IMG/VR virus record: IMGVR_UViG_3300018420_000021
Span: 1 to 58,797 of that record
From: a virus
Taxonomy: Duplodnaviria > Caudoviricetes
Reading direction: 5' to 3' (one strand)
DNA length: 58,797 nt
Shown here: piece by piece, positions 2,122-50,866 of the stretch
Numbering within the stretch: the first letter of the stretch is position 1
Layout: each line of letters starts with the position of its first letter
Program-made: the position numbers and the translations under genes
The notes under the pieces: generated by a model
What the model saw: the letters and a program-made list of their open reading frames with translations, nothing else
Database searches by the model: none
Told to the model about the DNA's origin: nothing

Positions 2122-3081
2122 ATGGATCAACTCACCTTATGGATGGCTGTTGGTTTCTTGTTCGCAGGATACGCAGTTATCGCAAATGATTCCGTACAAA
2201 CATTAGGTACATGGATCGCAAGTAATAACGAAAAATTTAATTGGAAAGTTATGTGGGGAGCGGCTTCAGCCGTACTCTTATATACGCTTTGGTATGGCTG
2301 GTATGTGAATGGTGGAGACATCAGTTACGGCAGACTTAACAAAATTCCATTCCAAGAAATACAATGGTATCACGCAATGGCTCCGGCCTTGCTATTAATA
2401 CTTACAAGAATAGGCGTGCCGGTTAGCACGTCTTTTTTAGTATTAAGTGCCTTTGCTTCTACATTTGTATTAGAAAAAATGCTTATGAAATCTATGATGG
2501 GATATGCAGTCGCGGCTGTGGCGGCGTATGCTATTTGGATAGTAGTAAGCAAGATACTTGACGAAGCAAAACCTGTCAAAGAAGAACACAAGAATTTGTG
2601 GCGAATAGGACAGTGGGTAACCACAGGCTTCCTATGGTTTACATGGCTGTCACACGATATGGCTAACATCGCTGTGTTCCTACCTAGAGAGATACCTTGG
2701 GATCTAATGATTTTAGTCAGTACTGTATTTGTAATTGGCTTAGGATTTATGTTCCGTGAAGGTGGAGGTAAGATACAAAAGATTGTATTAGAAAAACACA
2801 ACACAAGATACGTAAGGTCAGCAACTATTATTGATGCTGTGTATTGGGTTATCCTTTGGTTCTTCAAAGAACTAAATGACATACCAATGTCGACTACTTG
2901 GGTGTTTGTGGGTCTACTGTGTGGACGTGAACTTGCTATGGCAACTATGACAGGCAAGGAAAAGTTCAAATCAGTGTTTCCACTTGTAACACGAGACTTC
3001 TTTAAGATGATGATTGGATTAGGCGCAAGCGTAGGTATTGTGCTGTTTATACATTATCTTGTTGTACCCAATGGTTGGTAA
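2122..3081 (+). CDS. Multi-pass membrane transporter, distant PiT/PHO4 phosphate transporter-like
   Basis: Many TM segments; duplicated signature-like motifs IANDSVQTLG and SHDMANIA (cf. GANDVAN) and PVSTS/PMSTT; AAGGAG RBS. Confidence 0.65.
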   Translation: MDQLTLWMAVGFLFAGYAVIANDSVQTLGTWIASNNEKFNWKVMWGAASAVLLYTLWYGWYVNGGDISYGRLNKIPFQEIQWYHAMAPALLLILTRIGVPVSTSFLVLSAFASTFVLEKMLMKSMMGYAVAAVAAYAIWIVVSKILDEAKPVKEEHKNLWRIGQWVTTGFLWFTWLSHDMANIAVFLPREIPWDLMILVSTVFVIGLGFMFREGGGKIQKIVLEKHNTRYVRSATIIDAVYWVILWFFKELNDIPMSTTWVFVGLLCGRELAMATMTGKEKFKSVFPLVTRDFFKMMIGLGASVGIVLFIHYLVVPNGW

Positions 3082-13814: not shown

Positions 13815-13910
13815 GGTCCTGTAGTTTAATGGTAAAACACCCGCCTTATACGCGGTTAGATGTCTCCAGATTAGAGAGCGATCCCGGTTCGAATCCGGGC
13901 AGGACTACCA
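13815..13910 (+). tRNA. tRNA-Ile(TAT)-like with long variable arm
   Basis: Acceptor GGTCCTG/CAGGACT, D arm GTTT..AAAC, loop CTTATAC, ~26-nt variable region, T arm CCGG-TTCGAAT-CCGG, ACCA end. Confidence 0.8.
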
Positions 13911-16866: not shown

Positions 16867-17754
16867 ATGAATAAATTTAGTATTATTGCTGTCTCTATGC
16901 TAGCAATTTTCGCTACCAATGGTGTTGTAGCTGACGAAGCTAAGACACCAGTAACTGCAAAAGTTTTTGGAGAAGTTCGTGCATTTGTTAACGTAACTAG
17001 CCAAGACAATGTAGATGCTAGTGTTGAAAGCTCCAGCTCAAAAATTGGAGTGGTAGCAAACGCCGATGCTTCTGATAATATCAGTGTGTTCGGTGAACTA
17101 AGTGCTGACGTTGATGTTAATAGCAGTAGTGCATTAACAACTCGTTTTGGATATGCAGGTGTCAAGCACGATACACTTGGTGCAATTAGTCTTGGTAAGC
17201 ATATGAGCATTATGGAAATCTTTGTTGATAAAGGCGATCAGTTTTTCGAAGGCGGAAACGCAGGCGTACAGAAGCAAGACTTCTATCAATCAAACAGTGT
17301 ACGTTACATGAACAAGATTGGCGATATTGAAATCGGCGGACTTGCTGTGATGACAGACGATGCACAAAATGAAGCAATCGACAGTTTTCAGATTGGTGCA
17401 GGTTACGCTGGTATTGGTATTGCATATGCATATAACAATTTAACAGATATCGGACACTATGGTATTGGTGCTGAACGTAAGTATGGTCCAATTCTATTAG
17501 CTGGTAGCTTGAGTATGCAAGATGCGACGACAGACGTAATCGGGTATGAAGCAGTTGTTGGTTATGATGTAACTGACGCAGTAACTATCAAAGGTGGTTA
17601 CAGTGACACAGATGCGGCAAATGATGACGGTGTTATTACTGGCGGAACAGAATACAAGTTTGGCGACAGTGGTGCAGTGGCATTTGCAACAGTTGACTAC
17701 GACAATGATTCAGAAGACTGGACAGCTCGTAGTGGTATTAGTCTTACCTTCTAA
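16867..17754 (+). CDS. Gram-negative trimeric porin-like outer-membrane protein
   Basis: Signal peptide, VFGEV, SKIGV, R.GYAG....G.ISLGK, NSVRY, alternating beta strands, C-terminal Phe. Confidence 0.85.
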   Translation: MNKFSIIAVSMLAIFATNGVVADEAKTPVTAKVFGEVRAFVNVTSQDNVDASVESSSSKIGVVANADASDNISVFGELSADVDVNSSSALTTRFGYAGVKHDTLGAISLGKHMSIMEIFVDKGDQFFEGGNAGVQKQDFYQSNSVRYMNKIGDIEIGGLAVMTDDAQNEAIDSFQIGAGYAGIGIAYAYNNLTDIGHYGIGAERKYGPILLAGSLSMQDATTDVIGYEAVVGYDVTDAVTIKGGYSDTDAANDDGVITGGTEYKFGDSGAVAFATVDYDNDSEDWTARSGISLTF

Positions 17755-17778
17755 GAAAGTAAATATAATATCAAACTC

Positions 17779-17810
17779 AAATAAGCAGGGTTCATCCCTG
17801 CTTATTTTTT
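17779..17810 (+). terminator. Intrinsic terminator
   Basis: AAATAAGCAGGG-TTCAT-CCCTGCTTATTT followed by T run. Confidence 0.85.
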
Positions 17811-17850
17811 GACTACTAAATACGTGAAAAGCAAATCAAAAGGTTTTTCA

Positions 17851-18054
17851 ATGACACCCAACGAGCTCGAACATGCAAACAGATTATTCTGGATTGTAAA
17901 GGGACGACTAGTTCCAAAAGGTTGGAGCGATAAAACTATCCAAGATATGGTTAGAGACTATACCAAACGTGTATGGTATAATGAAGAATCATATATCTAC
18001 GAAGAAGGTTTTGAAAAAGCCTGGCAAAAACACTTGACAAATCCTCTTAACTAG
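17851..18054 (+). CDS. Small hypothetical protein
   Basis: ATG with AAGG upstream. Confidence 0.6.
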   Translation: MTPNELEHANRLFWIVKGRLVPKGWSDKTIQDMVRDYTKRVWYNEESYIYEEGFEKAWQKHLTNPLN

Positions 18055-18064
18055 CGTATAAATA
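18034..18064 (+). promoter_or_regulatory. Overlapping sigma70 and T4-late promoters for ssrA
   Basis: TTGACA(18034)-17-TATAAA, with TATAAATA at 18057-18064. Confidence 0.75.
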
Positions 18065-18069
18065 ATACT

Positions 18070-18450
18070 GCGATGTTGAAGCAATTCAAACGCTATACAG
18101 GACTCGGGGGCAGTACCCGACGCCTCCACCATAAACACATGAGGATATCATGAATTGGGATTGGCACTGGATTAGTTGGTTTAAAGGAACTCCTTTTCAA
18201 TGGGGCGATTTTAAATTAAATAGTGGAAATCCTTATAAAAGTTATAGATTTGGACCATTACTTATTCGTGTGTTTATGAGGGGGGCGAAATAGGATCGAC
18301 TGGTAGTTAATAGGAGAGTGGAGTCGTCCCGATGTAAGCTGGGTTAACGCGAACAATACTATAATTGCAAACGATAATTTTGCATCTGAGGATTTTGCCC
18401 TAGCGGCATAATTGCTCTGGGCGGGACCTGCCTGGAAACAGAAGTGCCAC
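18070..18450 (+). ncRNA. ssrA: Circularly permuted (two-piece) tmRNA, alphaproteobacterial type
   Basis: Acceptor piece with GGCAGTA T-loop ending CGCCTCCACCA (18131); coding piece starts GGGGGCGAAATAGGATCGAC (18281) giving G3:U70; tag ANDNFASEDFALAA* at 18367-18411; outer ends approximate. Confidence 0.93.
18150..18293 (+). CDS. 47-aa Trp/aromatic-rich ORF inside the tmRNA intervening sequence
   Basis: GAGGA RBS; MNWDWHWISWFKGTPFQWGDFKLNSGNPYKSYRFGPLLIRVFMRGAK*; stop lies in the tmRNA coding piece. Confidence 0.55.
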   Translation: MNWDWHWISWFKGTPFQWGDFKLNSGNPYKSYRFGPLLIRVFMRGAK

Positions 18451-18466
18451 TTTGATTTGGGGTAAA

Positions 18467-18616
18467 ATGAAAGTAGTTAAAGTTGACAACCGTTATCAAT
18501 ATATTGTTTATAGAGACGATGGTACAGTAGCTTTGGTTACATCTAATAGTAAAATTGCTCAAGACTATATTAAAAATAATACAATACGATCAGGTTATCA
18601 AGAAGACAACAAATGA
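18467..18616 (+). CDS. Small hypothetical protein (MKVVKVDNRYQYIVYRDDG..., 49 aa)
   Basis: Hand-translated; ATGA-coupled to next gene. Confidence 0.6.
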   Translation: MKVVKVDNRYQYIVYRDDGTVALVTSNSKIAQDYIKNNTIRSGYQEDNK

Positions 18617-19275
18617 GATATATTTGGATTAGTGGTGATAGTTTTTGTTGGCAACGAAAAAATCCAGAAACAGATTGGCCTCTTATACTAGCTAATCAAT
18701 TAGAACTAAAACTCGAAGGTGAAGGGTTTCCAGGACAACACTGGTGGCCCGTTATGAAAACTTTACTAGACTACGCTCAAACTGAAAAGTTCTCACGAAC
18801 CGAATATTTTATAATCTGCCACACAGACTGTGACAGACTTATTACACCACCTGATATTAAAATAGTTAGACAAGAGCAGTTTACACTTAAACAACGTGAA
18901 CACATCAGTGAAATATATTTCAAATATATCTACAGTAGAGAAATGATACAGTGGATGTCTGAGATGTATTTCAAAGATCTAAACCGAATACTAGCAGATA
19001 AAAAACCTATCTATCTAAACGTATTTGGTGAGCTTGGCGAAGGTTTTGAAACAGATAAGCATCTGTTTAATAGCATTTTAAACGGAATGAAAACGTCTCC
19101 AGATCAAAATCTCAGAGATTTTTGTATGCATGACTATGATGCATACGGGCCTGACACACACCCAAATCATTTTACACCTGATCAAAATCAAAAATTTGCT
19201 GACATACTGTTCAACAATATACAAAACTACACGCCTAATTCGTTTGTGCAAGATTTGGATTCGTTGCATAAATAA
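18613..19275 (+). CDS. SGNH/GDSL hydrolase-like protein
   Basis: N-terminal GDSF, C-terminal NH..P..N..FA. Confidence 0.65.
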   Translation: MRYIWISGDSFCWQRKNPETDWPLILANQLELKLEGEGFPGQHWWPVMKTLLDYAQTEKFSRTEYFIICHTDCDRLITPPDIKIVRQEQFTLKQREHISEIYFKYIYSREMIQWMSEMYFKDLNRILADKKPIYLNVFGELGEGFETDKHLFNSILNGMKTSPDQNLRDFCMHDYDAYGPDTHPNHFTPDQNQKFADILFNNIQNYTPNSFVQDLDSLHK

Positions 19276-19373
19276 TTCTACCAAATACATACAATTGGTA
19301 ACTTAGTAGTTGACATCGCTAAGTATTAACGTTATATTACAGTTATAACACAGACACACACAAGGAGAATATT

Positions 19374-19613
19374 ATGTCTACAAATAAAAACCCATTCGAA
19401 ATCCGTTTAGAACTACTAAAAATGGCTAAAGAGATGATGGATCGTCAGTATGAAGATCAGATCAACTTAGCACATCATGCTATGGAGCAGTTTAAAGAAC
19501 AAGGTCAGTCAGTAACTGAATTTTTTGAAACTTATACTCCAAAGATGTATCAGCCAAAAGAAGTCATGGAAAAAGCCAATGAGCTTTATACTTTTGTTAC
19601 TAAAAAGGACTAA
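19374..19613 (+). CDS. Conserved small phage protein (KNPFEIRLELLKMAK)
   Basis: Own TTGACA..TATATT promoter, AC-rich leader, AAGGAG RBS, downstream terminator. Confidence 0.8.
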   Translation: MSTNKNPFEIRLELLKMAKEMMDRQYEDQINLAHHAMEQFKEQGQSVTEFFETYTPKMYQPKEVMEKANELYTFVTKKD

Positions 19614-19677: not shown

Positions 19678-20388
19678 ATGCAACACATATTGTTATTTGA
19701 TGTAGACGGAACACTTACTCCCAGTCGTCAACGAATCGATGAAGAATTTAGACTTTGGTTTTACGATTTCGTATGGAAACGTAATTATCATATAGGATTG
19801 GTTACAGGAAGTGACTATCCTAAAACAGTTGAACAACTTGGTAGAGAAATTTGTGAACGTGTTGGACGATCATTCAATTGTTTGGGCAATGATGTTTGGG
19901 CACAAGGTAAGAATGTCTATACTAATCCTTGGCACTTGCCAGCTGAAGCAGAATTCTTTCTATTAGAAAAACTTTTTCAAAGCAAATATCCTATTCGCAC
20001 AGGAACACACATTGAGCATAGACCCGGTCTATGCAACTTTAGTGTAGTTGGACGTGAAGCAACACAAGAACAGCGTCAAGAGTATCATGCGTTTGATAAC
20101 CAGGATGGCGAACGCATTCGTATTGCTACAGAACTAGGCGTTCACTTTCCAGACTTAGAAGCTCGTGTAGGCGGGGAAATATCAATTGATATCTATCCCA
20201 AAGGTGCCGACAAGCAACAGGTAATCGATACACTAGAAGGCGATTACACTATAAAGTATTTTGGTGATAGAACTGATCCAACAGGAAATGATCACACAAT
20301 CGCCCAGCGCATCATAAACGACAGGCTGGGCGATGTATATACAGTAACAGACTGGAAAGAAACTTGGGAGTTACTCCGTAGTCTTTAG
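19678..20388 (+). CDS. HAD-IIB phosphomannomutase (eukaryote PMM-like)
   Basis: FDVDGTLT, VTGSD, IEHR..LCNFSVVGR, GGEISIDI.PKG.DK, FGDRT..GND. Confidence 0.88.
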   Translation: MQHILLFDVDGTLTPSRQRIDEEFRLWFYDFVWKRNYHIGLVTGSDYPKTVEQLGREICERVGRSFNCLGNDVWAQGKNVYTNPWHLPAEAEFFLLEKLFQSKYPIRTGTHIEHRPGLCNFSVVGREATQEQRQEYHAFDNQDGERIRIATELGVHFPDLEARVGGEISIDIYPKGADKQQVIDTLEGDYTIKYFGDRTDPTGNDHTIAQRIINDRLGDVYTVTDWKETWELLRSL

Positions 20389-27251: not shown

Positions 27252-27260
27252 ATATGTGTG

Positions 27261-29333
27261 ATGGGAAAACTTCTAACTAGCACATGGGTTGCATTGTTAA
27301 CTCTATTAATCTTAGTAACACTTCGTGTCTGGGATCCTACACCTGTTGAAACACTGAGATTAAAAGGCTTTGATTATCTTCAAAGCACAGAACAAAAATC
27401 ACAAAGCAAAGATATTGTACTACTAGACATTGGTGAACCCAGTCTAGAGGCATTTGGTCAGTGGCCCTGGCCCAGAGATTATTTTGCAAACATAATGATG
27501 AAGTTGCGTGAGAACGGCGCACAACTTATTACGTTTGTAGTATTTTTTCCAGAACAAGATCGCATGGGCCAAGATCAGGTATTTGCAGATATACTAGCAC
27601 AAGATCCATACACCATGCTAGCACAAACAGCAACGGATCGTGCGCTCAAAACTCATGGTAAACACATTGCCGCAAATTGGATAGGCGACGATCCCAAACC
27701 TTGGTTATACAACTGGCCCGGTCTAGTAAAGAACATTGACTTATTAGAAAATGCTGCCAAAGGTGTTGGTATGGTTGCAGTAGCACCTGAAGTAGATAAT
27801 CTTGTTAGACGTTTGCCATTGGTGGTAAGAATTGCAGATCAAATATATCCTAACCTTGCTATTGAGTTTATACGTGTAGCTACAGGTGATCCTGGTTACC
27901 AGATTAAAACAGGCCCTAGTGGTGTTCAGGCGGTTAGAGTGCCTGGATTTAATATTGTTAAAACTGATCCTCATAGTAGAATGTGGATTGACTACAACAA
28001 AACATTTGATAGAGTTGAAGTATCCGACGAAGACTGGAGCAGAGTTAATGGCAAGCATGTGTTCATTGGAACTACAGCCGCTGGACTTGCTAACTTTATT
28101 AGTACTCCAAATGGTCTTGTATATCCACATGAAATACAAGCGAGCTTAGTTCAAACAATCCTAGATGGAACCTTTATACAACGACAAGACTTTATGAACA
28201 CACTGGAAGCAATAGTGTTTGCGGTGTTTGGTGTTATACTCTTGTTGGTTGTACCTCGTACAAGTGTCTTACTCACAGTACCGGTATTAGTATTATATCT
28301 AGGTGGTGTAGCAGGATATACTTGGTACGAATGGACAGGCAGTAAAAATCTAGTAGATGCTACATTCCCAATGGCGGCAGGCTTTTTACTATTTGCTCAT
28401 CTCATATACAATAACTTTGCAAGAGAATTCCGTCAGAAGATGGAGATTAAAAAGCAGTTTGCAGGATACTGTTCACCCGAAGTTGTTAAAATATTACAGA
28501 CAAATCCAGACCTAATCAAGAAAGGCGTAAAGAAAGATGTAAGTGTTATGTTTAGTGACTTGCGTGGCTTTACTCCTATTGGTGAACACTATGGCAATGA
28601 TGTCAAAGGACTAGGCGATTATATGAATGGGTACATGGATTCAATTACTAAACCTATTCTTGATAAAAACGGTATGGTTATCAAATATGTTGGTGACGCT
28701 AGTATGCACATTCATGGTGCTCCTATAGACGATCCTAATCATGCTCATACTTGTGTGGGCGTAGGACTACAAATGATCGATGCTGTTGAAAAATATAGTG
28801 CAGAAATGCAAGCAAAAGGATTACCCAAAGCAGAGATGGGTTTTGGTATTAACACTGGTGAAGGCTTTATTGGTGAAATGGGATCTAGTGCCAGACACAG
28901 TTATGACATACTAGGCGATATGGTTAGCACAGCCGCACGTTTAGAAGCACGTTGTAAAGCATATGGTGTATTGTGTATTATTGGTGCAGAAACATACAAG
29001 CGTACAAGTAACGACTTTTTCTACTTGTTTTTAGATAATCTACAACCCAAAGGCAAAAGCACTCCGGACTTTATCTATACAGCGTTAAGCACATCAGAGT
29101 ATATGCTGAAAAACACAAACTGGTGTGTTGCAGAAAATCAACACAACAAGATGCATGAATACTATAAAAACCAACAGTTTGATCATGCTATTAGATTGTG
29201 TAATGCTTTACGTGGTGAGTTCAATGGTAAGATGGACAAGTATTATGACATCTGGATTGAACGCTGTGAACTAATGAAGACTCAGGACCTGCCTAAAGAC
29301 TGGAATGGCGCATTTGTTGCGACCGAGAAATAA
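27261..29333 (+). CDS. CHASE2-domain class III adenylate/guanylate cyclase
   Basis: GQWPWPR CHASE2 motif, three TMs, FSDLRGFT, KYVGDA, GINTG, LGDMVSTAARLE, TPR-like tail. Confidence 0.93.
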   Translation: MGKLLTSTWVALLTLLILVTLRVWDPTPVETLRLKGFDYLQSTEQKSQSKDIVLLDIGEPSLEAFGQWPWPRDYFANIMMKLRENGAQLITFVVFFPEQDRMGQDQVFADILAQDPYTMLAQTATDRALKTHGKHIAANWIGDDPKPWLYNWPGLVKNIDLLENAAKGVGMVAVAPEVDNLVRRLPLVVRIADQIYPNLAIEFIRVATGDPGYQIKTGPSGVQAVRVPGFNIVKTDPHSRMWIDYNKTFDRVEVSDEDWSRVNGKHVFIGTTAAGLANFISTPNGLVYPHEIQASLVQTILDGTFIQRQDFMNTLEAIVFAVFGVILLLVVPRTSVLLTVPVLVLYLGGVAGYTWYEWTGSKNLVDATFPMAAGFLLFAHLIYNNFAREFRQKMEIKKQFAGYCSPEVVKILQTNPDLIKKGVKKDVSVMFSDLRGFTPIGEHYGNDVKGLGDYMNGYMDSITKPILDKNGMVIKYVGDASMHIHGAPIDDPNHAHTCVGVGLQMIDAVEKYSAEMQAKGLPKAEMGFGINTGEGFIGEMGSSARHSYDILGDMVSTAARLEARCKAYGVLCIIGAETYKRTSNDFFYLFLDNLQPKGKSTPDFIYTALSTSEYMLKNTNWCVAENQHNKMHEYYKNQQFDHAIRLCNALRGEFNGKMDKYYDIWIERCELMKTQDLPKDWNGAFVATEK

Positions 29334-42784: not shown

Positions 42785-44083
42785 ATGTTTGATTTAGTTT
42801 TTGTGTCCTTCGCGGGCATCTTGGTAGGCATGCTTGCTGGATTATTACCAGCACTACCTGTATTTACAGGCCCATTGATCTTGTACTATTTCGTACAGGA
42901 CTATTATCCTGTTGAATATCTTTTGGTGTTTTGGTTAGCTAGTTACAGCGGCACACAGTTCTTTGGTAGCATTGCTACTATTACCACACGTATACCGGGT
43001 GAAGAAAGTGCGGCAATTTACTTAAATGATATCGACAATTTAACCACAGAACAAAAGCGCAATTTATTATATGATACCGCCATGGGTAGTTATATTGCGG
43101 CAACACTAAGTCTTGTGTTTGTATGGATTGTAGTAACCTACTTTGGCATAGGCATGTTTCCAGAACTTATGAGTATGCCTGTACAAATTGCAGTTTACTC
43201 AGTTGCAATACTGTTGTTCTTTTTAATACAGCCCAGCAAATGGCTTGTAACTCTTGTGCTTATTTCAGTAGGATTATTAATAGGTCCTCGACAAAATTAC
43301 GCATTACCTAATCTATGGTATGACATCCAACAGCTTTATAATGGTTATACTTTGTACATGGTTGTATTAGGTACTATTATATTTCCTGCACTAATAGATC
43401 CCGTCAAACGAATTACAGAAGTAGAACATTTTGGGCGAGTACGTAATAGAGGATATAGCATACTAGCTGGATTGCGTAGTACATTAATTGGTGCAGTGGC
43501 AGGATTAATTCCTGGACCTAGTGCAAGTGTAGCTACAGCTTTTGCATATCGCACTGGCGGATCTAGTAGTTATCGCAGAATTCTAAATGCAGAAACAGCT
43601 AACAACTCAGCAGTAGTAACCTGTGCATTGCCATTCTTTTTGTTAGGGATACCTATTAATCAAAATACATTGCTGATGAGCAACATTATGGATGTACAAA
43701 GTTTGGACATTGTTTCTGTAATACAAGAAACTGGTATGTTTGGATGGACAATATTTGATCTAGTTATTGCAATATCATTATGTGTTATGGTCATCTATTT
43801 TTGGTTAAGTACACATCTAATAGACTTCTATGCAGGTCTAGTTCAACGTTTACACCATCATATGAGATGGGTTGTAGCATTAATATTATTAGCACTGATA
43901 GCAGTAGATTTACAGTACGCTGAAATTGGACTAGGACGATATCTAATGTTATTAGCCAGTTTTACTGTTTTAGGATTTTGGTTACGCAAAATCAAAGTAA
44001 GTGCGATCCCATTCTTGTTTGCTATTATATTAGCTGATAAAATTATTTGGTTAGGCGTTCAAGCCTCGACTATATATTTCTAA
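42785..44083 (+). CDS. tctA: Tripartite tricarboxylate transporter permease TctA-like
   Basis: G.LAGLLP, FFGSI....RIPGE, GLIPG, AETANNSA, LGIP; about 12 TMs. Confidence 0.8.
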   Translation: MFDLVFVSFAGILVGMLAGLLPALPVFTGPLILYYFVQDYYPVEYLLVFWLASYSGTQFFGSIATITTRIPGEESAAIYLNDIDNLTTEQKRNLLYDTAMGSYIAATLSLVFVWIVVTYFGIGMFPELMSMPVQIAVYSVAILLFFLIQPSKWLVTLVLISVGLLIGPRQNYALPNLWYDIQQLYNGYTLYMVVLGTIIFPALIDPVKRITEVEHFGRVRNRGYSILAGLRSTLIGAVAGLIPGPSASVATAFAYRTGGSSSYRRILNAETANNSAVVTCALPFFLLGIPINQNTLLMSNIMDVQSLDIVSVIQETGMFGWTIFDLVIAISLCVMVIYFWLSTHLIDFYAGLVQRLHHHMRWVVALILLALIAVDLQYAEIGLGRYLMLLASFTVLGFWLRKIKVSAIPFLFAIILADKIIWLGVQASTIYF

Positions 44084-49594: not shown

Positions 49595-50866
49595 ATGCTT
49601 GAAATAGCGACAGCAGGATTTGTTGGTATAATTTCTGGGGTGCTAACTGGACTCGCTCCTGGTATCCCTATCTTACTAGGATATTTTCTGTTCTTACCAA
49701 TTATTGATCCTACCCCTTTGCCTTTGTTGTGTTATGCAATGGTAGCACTGATGGGTACTCAGTTCTTTGGTAGTCAAGCCGCTTTGTATTATCGTATTCC
49801 TGGCGAATCAAGTTCCTTTCCGATTCTATTTGAACTAAAAAACTTTAAAACACCTGGTGAGATTTATCAAGCGGTGCAAACAACTACCTATGGCAGTTTA
49901 GTAGCTAGTTTGTTTGCCAGTGGTATACTGACATTAACTTTGATGGCTGGATTACTACAAGGTCTCACTCTTCCAATACTGGCAAAATTTGCAATATTTG
50001 TATTTTTGATAGTAGTGTCTATCACTAGCGATAGACGCTGGATAATCAACACATTAACAATAGTATTTTGCTCTTTTATTTCGTTCTATGAAGATCTAGC
50101 TCCTTATGTTGGTACACCAACATATTATTTCAACAGTTTATTAGCATTGATTATTATAGTATCAATGCAGATGACTTTTAAAGATCCTGAAGAAATCAAT
50201 TACGACTTGGTCGATAAAACAGATAAGCAACCTTTTCCTGTAAGAAAATGGATTGGACCATTTTCCATATACAGCCTACTAGGATCGCTCTTTGGGTTTG
50301 TACCACAGTTAGGAGCTTCACTTTCAAGTTATTGTTGTTACCTCTATCAAAAATTCAGAGGGCATTCGCCACTGGCACGTGTAGCCGCTAGCGAAACTGC
50401 TAATAACTCTGCTATCATAACAGCATGGTTACCTTTGTTAGTATTTGGAATTCCTATTACTGCAACTGAAGTGTTTTTTGTACAGTATTTTAATCAATTG
50501 GGGTTTGGGTTTGAGTTTATGAAAGAAACATCAAACCAACTTACTCTACTAGGTGTGTTAGTCTTTGCCACTTTTACGTTTTCGGCGCTGGCATTGACTA
50601 CAAATAAGTATTTTTATAATTGGATTGCGCTAATTTTAACTACACGCTGGTTTGGTGTAATCATAGCAACAATTAGTATTTCGATGTTCTTTTATGCTAA
50701 CAGCTATACGTTTCAGTATATACTAGTTCATCTTGCTGTGTTTTTACCAATCAGTTATATTGTAGCAAAATTAAAAGTAAACCTTTTACCGATAGTAATT
50801 GGATTCTTGTTAACAGGACAGATCTTACAAACAGGTTATCGAGTGTTCCAAATTTACATATTCTAA
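49595..50866 (+). CDS. tctA: Second TctA-like permease
   Basis: GVLTGLAPG, FFGS.....RIPGESSS, SETANNSA, FGIPIT. Confidence 0.8.
   Translation: MLEIATAGFVGIISGVLTGLAPGIPILLGYFLFLPIIDPTPLPLLCYAMVALMGTQFFGSQAALYYRIPGESSSFPILFELKNFKTPGEIYQAVQTTTYGSLVASLFASGILTLTLMAGLLQGLTLPILAKFAIFVFLIVVSITSDRRWIINTLTIVFCSFISFYEDLAPYVGTPTYYFNSLLALIIIVSMQMTFKDPEEINYDLVDKTDKQPFPVRKWIGPFSIYSLLGSLFGFVPQLGASLSSYCCYLYQKFRGHSPLARVAASETANNSAIITAWLPLLVFGIPITATEVFFVQYFNQLGFGFEFMKETSNQLTLLGVLVFATFTFSALALTTNKYFYNWIALILTTRWFGVIIATISISMFFYANSYTFQYILVHLAVFLPISYIVAKLKVNLLPIVIGFLLTGQILQTGYRVFQIYIF

What the first reader, a model, noticed from the sequence alone, without database searches (positions are those of the whole stretch)
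18070..18450. Phage two-piece tmRNA whose intervening sequence is a stem-closed cassette carrying a protein-coding ORF
Seen: the acceptor piece ends ...CGCCTCCACCA at 18131 and the coding piece starts GGGGGCG at 18281, leaving about 150 nt between them. The ends of this spacer are complementary (CATAAACAC 18130-18138 / GTGTTTATG 18270-18278), extending the acceptor helix. The loop holds GAGGA plus ATG (18150) and an uninterrupted 47-codon Trp-rich ORF whose TAG stop (18291-18293) lies inside the mature tmRNA 5' end. Known: alphaproteobacterial permuted ssrA usually has a short intervening sequence removed by RNase P and 3' processing. Inference: the peptide can be finished only from unprocessed precursor. 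After RNase P cleavage the excised spacer would be a non-stop mRNA, i.e. a substrate for tmRNA itself. This could be a processing-coupled switch, a feedback sensor or a hitch-hiking mini-gene.
Basis: partly seen in the sequence, partly recalled or inferred. Interest (0 to 1): 0.88.

Follow-up and report, generated by a model that had tools for sequence, protein, structure and literature searches.

The report
Mobile mini-gene inside phage tmRNA spacer
A large uncultured salt-marsh phage carries a two-piece ribosome-rescue RNA (tmRNA) gene whose normally discarded spacer holds a real, selected 47-codon protein gene, and this small gene moves as a cassette between the tmRNA genes of distantly related phages and to other sites.

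Summary
Rfam confirms an alpha-type permuted tmRNA (113 and 111 bits). Its 149-150 nt intervening sequence (IVS) is closed by a 14-bp stem and holds a 47-codon ORF.

**The ORF is a real gene.**
- The same peptide sits at the same IVS position in 31 of 35 copies in other viral contigs.
- Variable columns by codon position are 7/6/24, and dN/dS is 0.04-0.14.
- It belongs to an unannotated family of 42-60 aa phage proteins.
- AlphaFold2 models it as a four-strand beta-meander (pLDDT 83).

**The IVS behaves as an exchangeable slot.**
- The cassette is about 96% identical across phages whose mature tmRNA outside the tRNA-like core is only 45-77% identical.
- Conversely, near-identical tmRNAs carry unrelated IVSs.
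- 31 of 35 long IVSs hold a spanning ORF, against 3.5 in shuffles.
- Copies outside tmRNA genes keep tmRNA fragments or 14-27 nt flanking direct repeats.

**The switch idea is not supported.** The stop codon lies inside the mature tmRNA in most copies but not all, so the feedback or non-stop switch gets no support from conservation. A hitch-hiking cassette fits best.

Expression from the precursor is inferred, not shown. This scan has noted the same phenomenon before on other DNA. I found no published description.

The parts
18034..18064 (+). Promoter-like site: TTGACA (18034-18039), 17-nt spacer, TATAAA (18057-18062). It overlaps TATAAATA (18057-18064), which matches the T4 late-promoter motif (recalled).
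   Evidence: Read by eye. The scanner did not list it, because its rule needs a T at position 6 of the second hexamer. Function is inferred.
18070..18131 (+). Acceptor piece of the permuted tmRNA: 5' pairing strand, T-arm, acceptor 3' strand CGCCTCC, discriminator A and encoded CCA.
   Evidence: Rfam RF04321 and RF01849 alignments; folds.
18132..18280 (+). Intervening sequence (IVS), 149 nt, absent from the mature tmRNA by analogy with other permuted tmRNAs.
   Evidence: Shown as an insertion in both Rfam alignments. Excision itself was not tested.
18130..18143 (+). 5' strand of the 14-bp closing stem. It includes the first three bases of the Shine-Dalgarno sequence GAGGA (18141-18145).
   Evidence: MFE and centroid folds. 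Stem covariation across loci: 70 of 78 unique IVS end pairs have a helix of 8 bp or more, with a mean of 10.4 bp against 6.4 when ends are re-paired at random.
18265..18278 (+). 3' strand of the closing stem. It lies inside the last codons of the ORF.
18150..18293 (+). 47-codon gene for a Trp-rich beta-meander mini-protein (MNWDWHWISWFKG...). Its TAG stop at 18291-18293 lies inside the coding piece.
   Evidence: dN/dS 0.04-0.14; 27 relatives at E<=1e-3; pLDDT 83.4.
18281..18453 (+). Coding piece of the tmRNA: acceptor 5' strand GGGGGCG, tRNA-like core, the tag frame 18367-18411 (ANDNFASEDFALAA*) and the 3' pairing strand.
17851..18054 (+). 67-aa small gene that ends inside the tmRNA promoter. 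In other phages its homologs sit inside the tmRNA IVS (L005, L070, L102).
   Evidence: tblastn: 40-45% identity, E 2e-17 to 9e-15 in a three-sequence database. IVS positions.
18467..18616 (+). Next small ORF (49 aa). It starts 14 nt after the end of the tmRNA match, with no terminator between them.
   Evidence: One search found 0 terminator-like sites in 17700-19400.

Best explanation
The locus is a functional-looking alpha-type two-piece tmRNA gene of a large aquatic phage. The loop of its intervening hairpin has been filled by a small mobile protein-gene cassette.

**How I think it works.**
- The cassette brings its own Shine-Dalgarno sequence and ATG, and encodes a 42-residue beta-meander domain.
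- It is most likely transcribed from the tmRNA promoter as part of the tmRNA precursor, and perhaps of a longer polycistronic RNA, since no terminator follows.
- It would be translated from that unprocessed RNA.
- The last codons run through the 3' strand of the closing stem and the 5' strand of the acceptor stem. Translation and RNase P / 3'-end maturation of one molecule should therefore be mutually exclusive in time: messenger first, then tmRNA precursor.

**How the cassette spreads.**
- The IVS is an exchangeable slot. The conserved tRNA-like core on both sides acts as homology arms for recombination between co-infecting phages, so cassettes are swapped without a dedicated enzyme.
- This particular cassette has also escaped to non-tmRNA sites.
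- The stop codon inside the mature tmRNA is a by-product of reading to the first in-frame stop, not a sensor.

**Shown:** the tmRNA, the stem, the gene and its selection, cassette exchange, and the footprints of escape.
**Inferred:** the promoter, translation from the precursor, the order of events, and the recombination mechanism.
**Unknown:** the protein's function.
For: **The tmRNA.**

**A real gene.**
- A degenerate pattern for WDWHWISWFK hit 34 viral contigs.
- In 31 of 35 copies the pattern's first codon (Trp-3, window 18156) begins 24 nt after CCACCA, as it does in the window.
- There are 17 unique 42-codon CDSs. Variable columns by codon position are 7/6/24, and NG86 dN/dS is 0.04-0.14, including an AGA to CGC Arg change.
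- phmmer against 1.84 billion representatives gave 27 hits at E<=1e-3 and 10 at E<=1e-10, mostly 44-60 aa proteins.
- N24, G26 and Y29 are invariant.
- AlphaFold2 with 31 sequences gave pLDDT 83.4 and four strands. The last block (residues 41-47) has the lowest mean pLDDT, 73, and residues 43-47 have no secondary structure.

**A slot.**
- Among 35 dereplicated IVSs of 105 nt or more, 31 hold an ORF covering at least 70% of the IVS. In 200 shuffle sets the mean was 3.5 and the maximum 11.
- IVSs of 60-104 nt show no excess: 5 of 24, against 6.5 in shuffles.

**Exchange.**
- In 78 pairs of 13 unique haplotypes the median identity is 0.71 for the acceptor piece, 0.93 for the IVS and 0.67 for the coding piece. 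The IVS is the highest of the three in 64 of 78 pairs.
- Identity to the window is 0.96 in ORF codons 1-42, 0.99 in the acceptor 3' strand and 0.91 in coding-piece bases 1-20. It falls to 0.45-0.77 beyond these.
- Flanking genes share at most 38-45% amino-acid identity, or nothing at all.
- Conversely, of 108 pairs with mature-tmRNA identity >=0.88, 25 have IVS identity <0.6. Examples: L064/L098 at 1.00; L073/L132 at 0.995 (72 nt against 150 nt); L053/WIN at 0.887 (a 30-nt hairpin against the cassette).

**Escape.**
- L229 and L248 keep 24 nt of coding piece after the cassette.
- Flanking direct repeats are 27 nt (L228, L247), 22 nt (L222) and 14 nt (L130).

**Phage-only.** The family motif gave 0 hits in one genome each of 185,579 species.

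**RNA.** A 220-nt contig identical to the window in a metatranscriptome library covers 17986-18205, across the CCA/IVS junction. Another contig spans 18113-18304 with 10 differences.
Against: - There is no direct evidence of transcription start, of processing sites or of translation.
- The RNA-library records are assembled contigs. DNA carry-over is not excluded, and their depth (2.5-5) is like that of the neighbouring genes.
- The promoter was read by eye, and the scanner did not list it.
- The loci used for the identity comparison were found with a pattern inside the IVS. This biases IVS identity upward.
- Most tmRNA contexts were classified by simple regular expressions. Only 15 loci were checked with Rfam.
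- The family recurs immediately upstream of tmRNA genes (L162, L164, L185, L208, L202/L222). This could point to a functional tie to tmRNA rather than mere hitch-hiking.
- The SD-to-ATG spacing is short (4 nt), and three SD bases are paired in the closing stem.
Confidence: 0.75

Rival explanations
1. Processing-coupled switch or feedback sensor. The stop lies in the mature 5' end, so only unprocessed precursor gives a stable peptide. The excised IVS would be a non-stop mRNA whose product is tagged by tmRNA. Peptide level would then report the activity of tmRNA processing or of trans-translation.
For: - In the window the TAG at 18291-18293 lies after the expected RNase P site at 18280/18281.
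- 25 of 30 unique IVS-borne copies of this cassette end at that coding-piece TAG.
- About a third of the other cassette families also stop there.
Against: - 3 of 30 unique copies stop at a TAA inside the IVS, and 2 stop elsewhere.
- P0001 reads through to the tag stop.
- In other cassettes the stops are at +12, -2 or -8 to -17. This is what the first in-frame stop would give, since two of the three frames are closed by conserved tmRNA bases.
- The conserved domain ends at residue 42 and the tail is variable.
- Free-standing homologs work without any tmRNA nearby: 33 of 40 loci have no tmRNA motif at all, 4 have one only 6.8-7.8 kb away and 3 have one adjacent.
Confidence: 0.1
2. Functional partner of tmRNA. 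The mini-protein acts on trans-translation, for example by binding tmRNA, SmpB or the ribosome. On this reading it is kept in or next to tmRNA genes for co-expression rather than as a passenger.
For: The family is linked to tmRNA in three layouts.
- Inside the IVS: 30 unique copies.
- Directly upstream of the tmRNA or its promoter: L162, L164, L185 and L208.
- Between the promoter and the tmRNA 5' end: L222.
Against: - Most diverged family members have no tmRNA motif nearby. Of 40 loci, 33 have none, 4 have one 6.8-7.8 kb away and 3 have one adjacent.
- Many unrelated cassette families occupy the same slot.
- Empty slots exist in near-identical tmRNAs.
- No fold or family match hints at RNA or ribosome binding.
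Confidence: 0.1
3. A silent passenger. The ORF is carried in the IVS but not translated there, as was suggested for the S23p ORF of the Coxiella 23S rRNA IVS. Selection would then act only on the free-standing copies.
For: - The SD is partly paired in a 14-bp stem.
- There is no expression data.
- In the precedent, PMC4990558, the abstract says that results suggest the protein is not made. I saw only the search listing, which cuts the abstract off at that point.
Against: - The purifying selection was measured mainly on IVS-borne copies.
- The SD and ATG are conserved in the IVS copies.
- 31 of 35 long IVSs keep intact spanning ORFs.
Confidence: 0.04
4. The IVS is conserved as a structured RNA, and the ORF is incidental.
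For: The IVS is more conserved than the mature tmRNA, and it folds well.
Against: - Substitutions concentrate at third codon positions (7/6/24), and synonymous multi-base changes occur.
- Diverged relatives at 38-60% protein identity keep the motif and the length.
- AlphaFold2 gives a confident fold.
Confidence: 0.01

Closest known systems
Circularly permuted two-piece tmRNA genes of Alphaproteobacteria and of aquatic myophages. Sources: Rfam RF01849 and RF04321; OM43 phage Melnitz and pelagimyophages (PMC9004378, passages read); the tmRNA database paper (PMC11915505, passages read).
   Same: The gene order is acceptor piece, IVS, coding piece. It has a G3:U pair, an encoded CCA, an ANDN...LAA tag and a marine or aquatic phage setting.
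   Different: - Described IVSs are treated as discarded spacers.
- The database paper mentions only a tRNA-Ala and a repetitive element inside IVSs.
- The Melnitz paper does not use the word 'intervening' at all (0 occurrences).
- Here the IVS holds a selected protein gene and behaves as an exchangeable slot.
ORF-bearing intervening sequences of 23S rRNA genes. Sources: the S23p ORF in the Coxiella burnetii IVS (PMC4990558, search listing and start of abstract only); Leptospira IVS ORFs (recalled).
   Same: A stem-closed spacer is excised from a stable-RNA precursor. It carries an ORF and is regarded as a selfish element.
   Different: - The host RNA is rRNA rather than tmRNA, and excision is by RNase III (recalled).
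- A single ORF family is involved, and its expression is doubtful.
- There is no Pfam match between the two proteins.
- Here many unrelated cassettes share one slot, and selection on the protein is clear.
Group I introns with LAGLIDADG homing-endonuclease genes in tmRNA genes (PMC11915505, passages read).
   Same: A protein gene lies inside a tmRNA gene, in a part that is removed from the mature RNA.
   Different: - Those sit in the T-loop, self-splice and encode their own mobility enzyme.
- Here Rfam finds no intron.
- The product is a 47-aa protein with no family match.
- Mobility seems to rely on flanking homology.
PeSL (promoter-early stem-loop) cassettes, which shuffle small ORFs in T4-type phages (PMC2839356 and PMC4122927; titles and starts of abstracts seen).
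   Same: Small genes of unknown function are swapped between related large phages through short conserved flanking sequences, without a dedicated recombinase.
   Different: Here the conserved flanks are the tRNA-like core and closing stem of a tmRNA gene, so the slot lies inside a stable-RNA gene. I did not test for PeSL motifs.
Dual-function RNAs such as SgrS/SgrT and RNAIII/hld (recalled).
   Same: One transcript serves both as a messenger and as a functional RNA or its precursor.
   Different: In those the same mature molecule does both jobs. Here the coding part is the piece that is cut away.

Membership tests
Permuted (two-piece) tmRNA, Rfam RF04321 / RF01849 | Covariance-model score above the gathering threshold, with the acceptor piece 5' of the coding piece | tested here: met
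   113 bits (gathering score 47) and 111.3 bits (gathering score 50), both full-length model matches.
Permuted (two-piece) tmRNA, Rfam RF04321 / RF01849 | Alanine-type acceptor stem with G3:U70, a discriminator base and a CCA end | tested here: met
   GGGGGCG (18281-18287) pairs with CGCCTCC (18121-18127). The third pair is G:U. A18128 and CCA (18129-18131) follow.
Permuted (two-piece) tmRNA, Rfam RF04321 / RF01849 | A tag reading frame that starts at an Ala resume codon and ends in ...AA plus a stop | tested here: met
   18367-18411 translates to ANDNFASEDFALAA*. ARAGORN reports the same tag for L053.
Permuted (two-piece) tmRNA, Rfam RF04321 / RF01849 | The precursor is cut into two base-paired pieces, and SmpB-dependent trans-translation follows | not testable with these tools
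   Only assembled contigs of RNA libraries were available. No SmpB gene is present in this fragment, which is 16% complete.
Unnamed phage mini-protein family (WFxGxPFxW..FNSGxPYxSYRxGPLLIRV) | Significant sequence similarity over the whole ~42-residue domain, with N24, G26 and Y29 conserved | tested here: met
   27 phmmer hits at E<=1e-3. The invariant columns hold in alignments of 19 and 31 sequences. No Pfam or PHROG family covers it.
23S rRNA IVS protein (S23p-type) | Protein homology to the IVS-encoded S23p family | tested here: not met
   Pfam scan of the peptide and 6 relatives gave 0 families at E<=1. The resemblance is in layout only.
Homing-endonuclease gene in a group I intron | A group I intron RNA fold plus an endonuclease domain | tested here: not met
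   There is no intron family among the 14 Rfam matches at gathering score. The protein has no domain match.
PeSL-flanked mobile cassette of T4-type phages | An early promoter plus a stem-loop terminator motif on both sides of the cassette | not tested
   The TTGACA-17-TATAAA site upstream of the tmRNA was read by eye. No PeSL model was applied.

The most novel reading that the evidence does not exclude
The intervening hairpin of phage two-piece tmRNA genes is an integrase-free gene-cassette platform.
- The universally conserved tRNA-like core supplies the homology arms.
- The closing stem supplies processing signals, and often the RBS and stop context.
- The strong tmRNA promoter supplies expression.

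Small genes such as this Trp-rich mini-protein would home into the slot, be exchanged between distantly related phages, and sometimes escape carrying tmRNA fragments with them. Because the terminating ribosome must melt the acceptor stem, each transcript would be a messenger first and a tmRNA precursor afterwards. That would couple cassette expression to the timing of tmRNA maturation.
Probability: 0.4. Interest if true: 0.8.

Novelty: new variant of a known kind. Interest (0 to 1): 0.72.

Why it matters
Spacers excised from stable-RNA precursors are normally regarded as junk. Here a spacer inside a ribosome-rescue RNA gene is a recurrent, selected site for small protein genes in aquatic phages.

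- It shows a route of gene exchange between distant phages that uses conserved RNA-gene sequence as recombination arms.
- It explains why standard tools miss or mis-annotate these loci. ARAGORN missed this tmRNA, and gene callers run ORFs into the tmRNA.
- It offers a simple natural system for asking how translation and RNA processing compete on one transcript.
- It defines a new, widespread phage mini-protein family with a confident fold and no known function.

Tried and rejected
**Searches that found nothing**
- blastn of 17800-18700 and tblastn of the 220-aa downstream protein against the GenBank phage collection gave no match.
- The search for related loci with the 220-aa neighbour found no relative.
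- PHROG and Pfam scans of the peptide and 6 relatives found nothing.
- The ESM Atlas gave only unnamed clusters at 0.80-0.81, below the level of a lead.
- Foldseek against PDB and BFVD gave no match at E<=0.001. The protein's function therefore stays unknown.
- SmpB is absent from this record, which is only 16% complete, so this says nothing about the phage.

**Checks that did not confirm a suspicion**
- The promoter scanner did not list the TTGACA-17-TATAAA site, and it found no terminator.
- I suspected tRNA-like sequences inside the IVSs of L092, L027 and L120. ARAGORN called none there.

**Metatranscriptome contigs**
- Parts of the IVS have no cover in X16 and X17. That proves nothing.
- One X16 contig matches 17866-18134 exactly, then has 61 other letters in place of the cassette, and rejoins at 18274 with 7 differences. 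It may be a variant slot or an assembly chimera. I did not use it as evidence.

**Literature searches**
- Searches found no paper describing protein genes in permuted-tmRNA intervening sequences.
- The library holds only open-licence PMC papers and bioRxiv preprints.
- Supplements are closed. Table S1 of PMC9004378 and the supplementary files of PMC11915505 might list such IVSs.
- Keiler et al. 2000 (PMC16621) is not held. Statements on RNase P and 3' processing are therefore recalled.

**Rows dropped before counts**
- One search used 26 of the 36 copies. Left out were L129, L133, L136 and L151 (no coding-piece match to my regular expression), L146 and L147 (too short), and L125, L130 and both L154 copies (no CCACCA).
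- One search also left out L123 and L152, which have extra inserts.
- One search used 85 complete copies of 95, which reduce to 48 unique regions.
Full report
**1. The observation**

The sequence read matches every detail of the finding.
- CGCCTCCACCA ends at 18131 and GGGGGCG begins at 18281.
- CATAAACAC (18130-18138) is complementary to GTGTTTATG (18270-18278).
- GAGGA lies at 18141-18145, the ATG at 18150 and the TAG at 18291-18293.

The ORF listing gives a 47-aa ORF at 18150-18293.

Rfam places tmRNA_permuted (RF04321) at 18070-18411 with 113 bits and alpha_tmRNA (RF01849) at 18030-18453 with 111.3 bits. Both are far above their gathering scores, and both treat the spacer as an insertion. 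The tag frame 18367-18411 reads ANDNFASEDFALAA*.

Folding 18121-18293 gives the 7-bp acceptor stem with a G3:U pair. After a 2-nt bulge comes a 14-bp closing stem (18130-18143 with 18265-18278). The energy is -54.1 kcal/mol, z = -4.93, and 0 of 200 shuffles fold as well. ARAGORN found 12 tRNAs but not this tmRNA.

**2. The setting**

- The window is an IMG/VR virus record of 58,797 bases, estimated 16% complete, with 37-42% G+C.
- It encodes a T4-type large terminase, a phosphomannomutase, a CHASE2-cyclase and two TctA transporters.
- 36 of its 39 ORFs of 200 aa or more are on the + strand.
- DNA runs from salt marshes hold the stretch.
- TTGACA (18034-18039), a 17-nt spacer and TATAAA (18057-18062, also readable as TATAAATA) sit just before the tmRNA 5' end. 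The scanner's stricter rule did not list this site.
- No terminator-like site lies in 17700-19400.
- The next ORF starts at 18467.

**3. Is the ORF a gene?**

A 47-codon open frame in AT-rich DNA is not compelling on its own. The comparative evidence is.

*Conservation of position.* A degenerate pattern for WDWHWISWFK hit 34 viral contigs. In 31 of the 35 copies the pattern's first codon (Trp-3) begins 24 nt after CCACCA. This is the same place in a permuted tmRNA as in the window.

*Selection.* Seventeen unique 42-codon sequences have 7, 6 and 24 variable columns at codon positions 1, 2 and 3. Pairwise NG86 dN/dS is 0.04-0.14.

*Family.*
- phmmer against 1.84 billion representatives found 27 relatives at E<=1e-3, mostly proteins of 44-60 aa.
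- N24, G26 and Y29 are invariant.
- A second pattern, FNSGxPYxSYRxGP, found 55 viral stretches. About 40 of these hold diverged, free-standing homologs in ordinary operon contexts. Of the 40 loci, 33 have no tmRNA motif at all, 4 have one 6.8-7.8 kb away, and 3 have one directly downstream.
- The same pattern hit nothing in one genome each of 185,579 bacterial and archaeal species.

*Fold.* AlphaFold2 with 31 sequences gives pLDDT 83.4 and a four-strand meander (E2-7, E16-24, E27-34, E37-42). Residues 43-47 lie outside any secondary structure, and the last block (41-47) has the lowest mean pLDDT, 73.

*No known family.* No Pfam, PHROG, PDB or BFVD match names a function.

**4. The IVS as a slot**

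- IVS lengths run from 4 to 500 nt.
- Of 35 dereplicated IVSs of 105 nt or more, 31 hold an ORF covering at least 70% of the IVS. In 200 shuffle sets the mean was 3.5 and the maximum 11.
- IVSs of 60-104 nt show no excess: 5 of 24, against 6.5 in shuffles.
- The ORFs fall into several unrelated families. Examples are small membrane peptides, the family ending '...ICINNYS...', and a 'WxNEExYIYxxGFEE' family.
- That last family is homologous to the window's own gene just upstream of the tmRNA, at 17851-18054 (40-45% identity). The same genes therefore occur both in and beside the slot.
- The closing stem is a constant of the slot. 70 of 78 unique IVS end pairs form a helix of 8 bp or more. The mean is 10.4 bp, against 6.4 for re-paired ends, with 52 distinct 5' ends. 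This amounts to covariation.

**5. Exchange**

*Same cassette in different tmRNAs.*
- Among 13 unique haplotypes of the Trp-rich cassette, the median pairwise identity is 0.93 in the IVS, 0.71 in the 62 nt before CCA and 0.67 in the first 160 nt of the coding piece. The IVS is the most conserved part in 64 of 78 pairs.
- Relative to the window, identity is 0.96 in ORF codons 1-42, 0.99 in the acceptor 3' strand and 0.91 in coding-piece bases 1-20. It falls to 0.45-0.77 outside these.
- blastn tracts end in the T-arm and soon after GGATCGAC.
- Neighbouring genes share 38-45% amino-acid identity at best.
- These loci were found through a pattern inside the IVS, so the IVS figure is biased upward.

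*Same tmRNA with different IVSs.* This reverse test is free of that bias. Of 108 pairs with at least 88% identity in the mature parts, 25 have unrelated IVSs.
- L064/L098: identical mature parts, different ORFs.
- L073/L132: 99.5% identity, with a 72-nt ORF-less IVS against this cassette.
- L053/WIN: 88.7% identity and the same tag, with a 30-nt hairpin against the cassette.
- L102/WIN: 89.2% identity, with the family of the window's upstream gene against this cassette.

The simplest reading is recombination between co-infecting phages, using the conserved tRNA-like core and stem as arms. That mechanism is inferred.

**6. Escape from the slot**

I pooled the viral and metagenome hits: 95 copies, 85 of them complete, giving 48 unique regions. 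The two collections overlap.
- 30 regions lie in an IVS.
- 2 follow an acceptor piece only.
- 16 lack my tmRNA motifs.

Reading these contexts gave the following.
- L229 and L248 keep 24 nt of coding piece after the cassette. L199 and L218 keep about 11-12 nt.
- L228 and L247 have a 27-nt flanking direct repeat, L222 a 22-nt one and L130 a 14-nt one. IVS-borne copies have none longer than 7 nt.
- In L222 the cassette sits between a tmRNA promoter and the tmRNA 5' end.
- In L208, L162, L164 and L185 the gene lies just upstream of a tmRNA.
- L151 has an acceptor piece plus cassette remnant ahead of an intact beta-type tmRNA.

**7. The switch hypothesis**

In the window the stop lies inside the coding piece. 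An IVS released at the usual RNase P site would therefore be a non-stop message. That site is recalled, because the primary paper is not held.

The feature is not conserved.
- Of 30 unique IVS-borne copies, 25 use the coding-piece TAG, 3 use a TAA inside the IVS and 2 stop elsewhere.
- One relative reads through into the tag frame (P0001).
- Other cassette families stop at +12, at -2, or at -8 to -17. This is what reading to the first in-frame stop would give.
- The last five residues lie outside the conserved fold.

I therefore rate the switch or feedback idea at about 0.1.

What does follow from the anatomy is this. A ribosome finishing the ORF must open the closing stem and the acceptor stem. 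Translation and maturation of one molecule therefore cannot coincide. This is an inference.

**8. Expression**

Six metatranscriptome runs hold part of the stretch. I laid four of them.
- One contig identical to the window covers 17986-18205, across the CCA/IVS junction.
- One contig with 10 differences covers 18113-18304, the whole IVS and both junctions.

Depths resemble those of the neighbouring genes. These are contigs, and DNA carry-over is not excluded. I count this as a weak hint only.

**9. What is known**

- Two-piece tmRNAs in marine phages are described (PMC9004378, passages read).
- The 2025 tmRNA database paper mentions a tRNA and a repeat inside IVSs, and homing-endonuclease genes in tmRNA introns. 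It does not mention IVS protein genes (PMC11915505, passages read).
- Five full-text searches found no description. Supplements were closed.
- The nearest analogues are the ORF-bearing IVS of 23S rRNA (PMC4990558, listing only) and PeSL-mediated shuffling of small genes in T4-type phages (PMC2839356 and PMC4122927, listings).
- Earlier notes of this scan report the same phenomenon on other genomes, including a 43-codon relative of this cassette. They are unchecked AI notes. I reached the slot and exchange conclusions from my own calls.

**10. Verdict**

- The locus is a new variant of a known kind: a permuted tmRNA whose spacer is a gene slot.
- For this window the added points are the cassette's horizontal spread, its escape footprints and its membership of a wide, unnamed mini-protein family.
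- Confidence is 0.75 for the gene-in-slot and hitch-hiker reading.
- The function of the protein and the route of its expression remain open.

Noticed in passing
window 17851-18054 (+): The 67-aa gene that ends inside the tmRNA promoter is homologous (40-45% identity) to ORFs inside the tmRNA IVS of L005, L070 and L102. The L102 copy has no canonical start codon.
   Followed up: partly
window 18030-18453: ARAGORN did not call this tmRNA, nor the one in L102. It did call those of L053, L123, L132, L092 and L027. Standard annotation will therefore miss some of these loci.
   Followed up: partly
window 2433-2592 (+): A weak second alpha_tmRNA match of 18.2 bits, below the cut-off of 50. It lies within the 319-aa ORF 2122-3081 and is probably chance.
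   Followed up: no
window 13815-13910 (+); L027 1928-2021 (-): An unusually long tRNA-Ile(TAT), 96 nt here and 94 nt in L027. It may carry an insertion or intron. The window's 12 tRNAs form clusters at about 13 kb and 31-32 kb.
   Followed up: no
window 27258-29330, 42785-44080, 49595-50863, 19678-20385, 16867-17754: Auxiliary-looking genes in a phage fragment: a CHASE2 plus adenylate/guanylate cyclase protein, two TctA transporter genes and a phosphomannomutase. A 295-aa ORF with a signal-peptide-like start and a C-terminal Phe has no Pfam match and may be a porin-like protein (read by eye).
   Followed up: no
L151 1019-1239 and 1777-2111: An acceptor piece plus the Trp-rich cassette, with no coding piece after it, lies about 540 nt upstream of an intact tmRNA that scores best as beta-type (RF01850, 104 bits). 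This looks like a footprint of tmRNA replacement.
   Followed up: partly
L154 5041-5187 and 5855-5998: Two free-standing copies of the mini-gene lie about 800 nt apart in one contig. A shared sequence of about 22 nt follows copy 1 and precedes copy 2.
   Followed up: partly
P0001 (85 aa): In one relative the called ORF runs from the mini-protein through the whole coding piece and ends with the tmRNA tag (...ANDNFAPEMRLAA). The coding-piece stop is missing there and the frames happen to coincide.
   Followed up: no
window 17866-18134 / 18274-18329, run X16 record 7: An RNA-library contig is identical to the window up to 18134. It then has 61 other letters in place of the cassette and rejoins at 18274 with 7 differences. 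It is either a variant of this phage with another IVS or an assembly chimera.
   Followed up: no
L123, L131, L141, L142, L153 (IVS 167 nt); L152 (IVS 256 nt): These IVSs carry the cassette plus an extra copy of the 3' stem strand (L123 group) or a further insert of about 100 nt (L152). The ORF then stops inside the IVS. These look like traces of successive insertions.
   Followed up: partly
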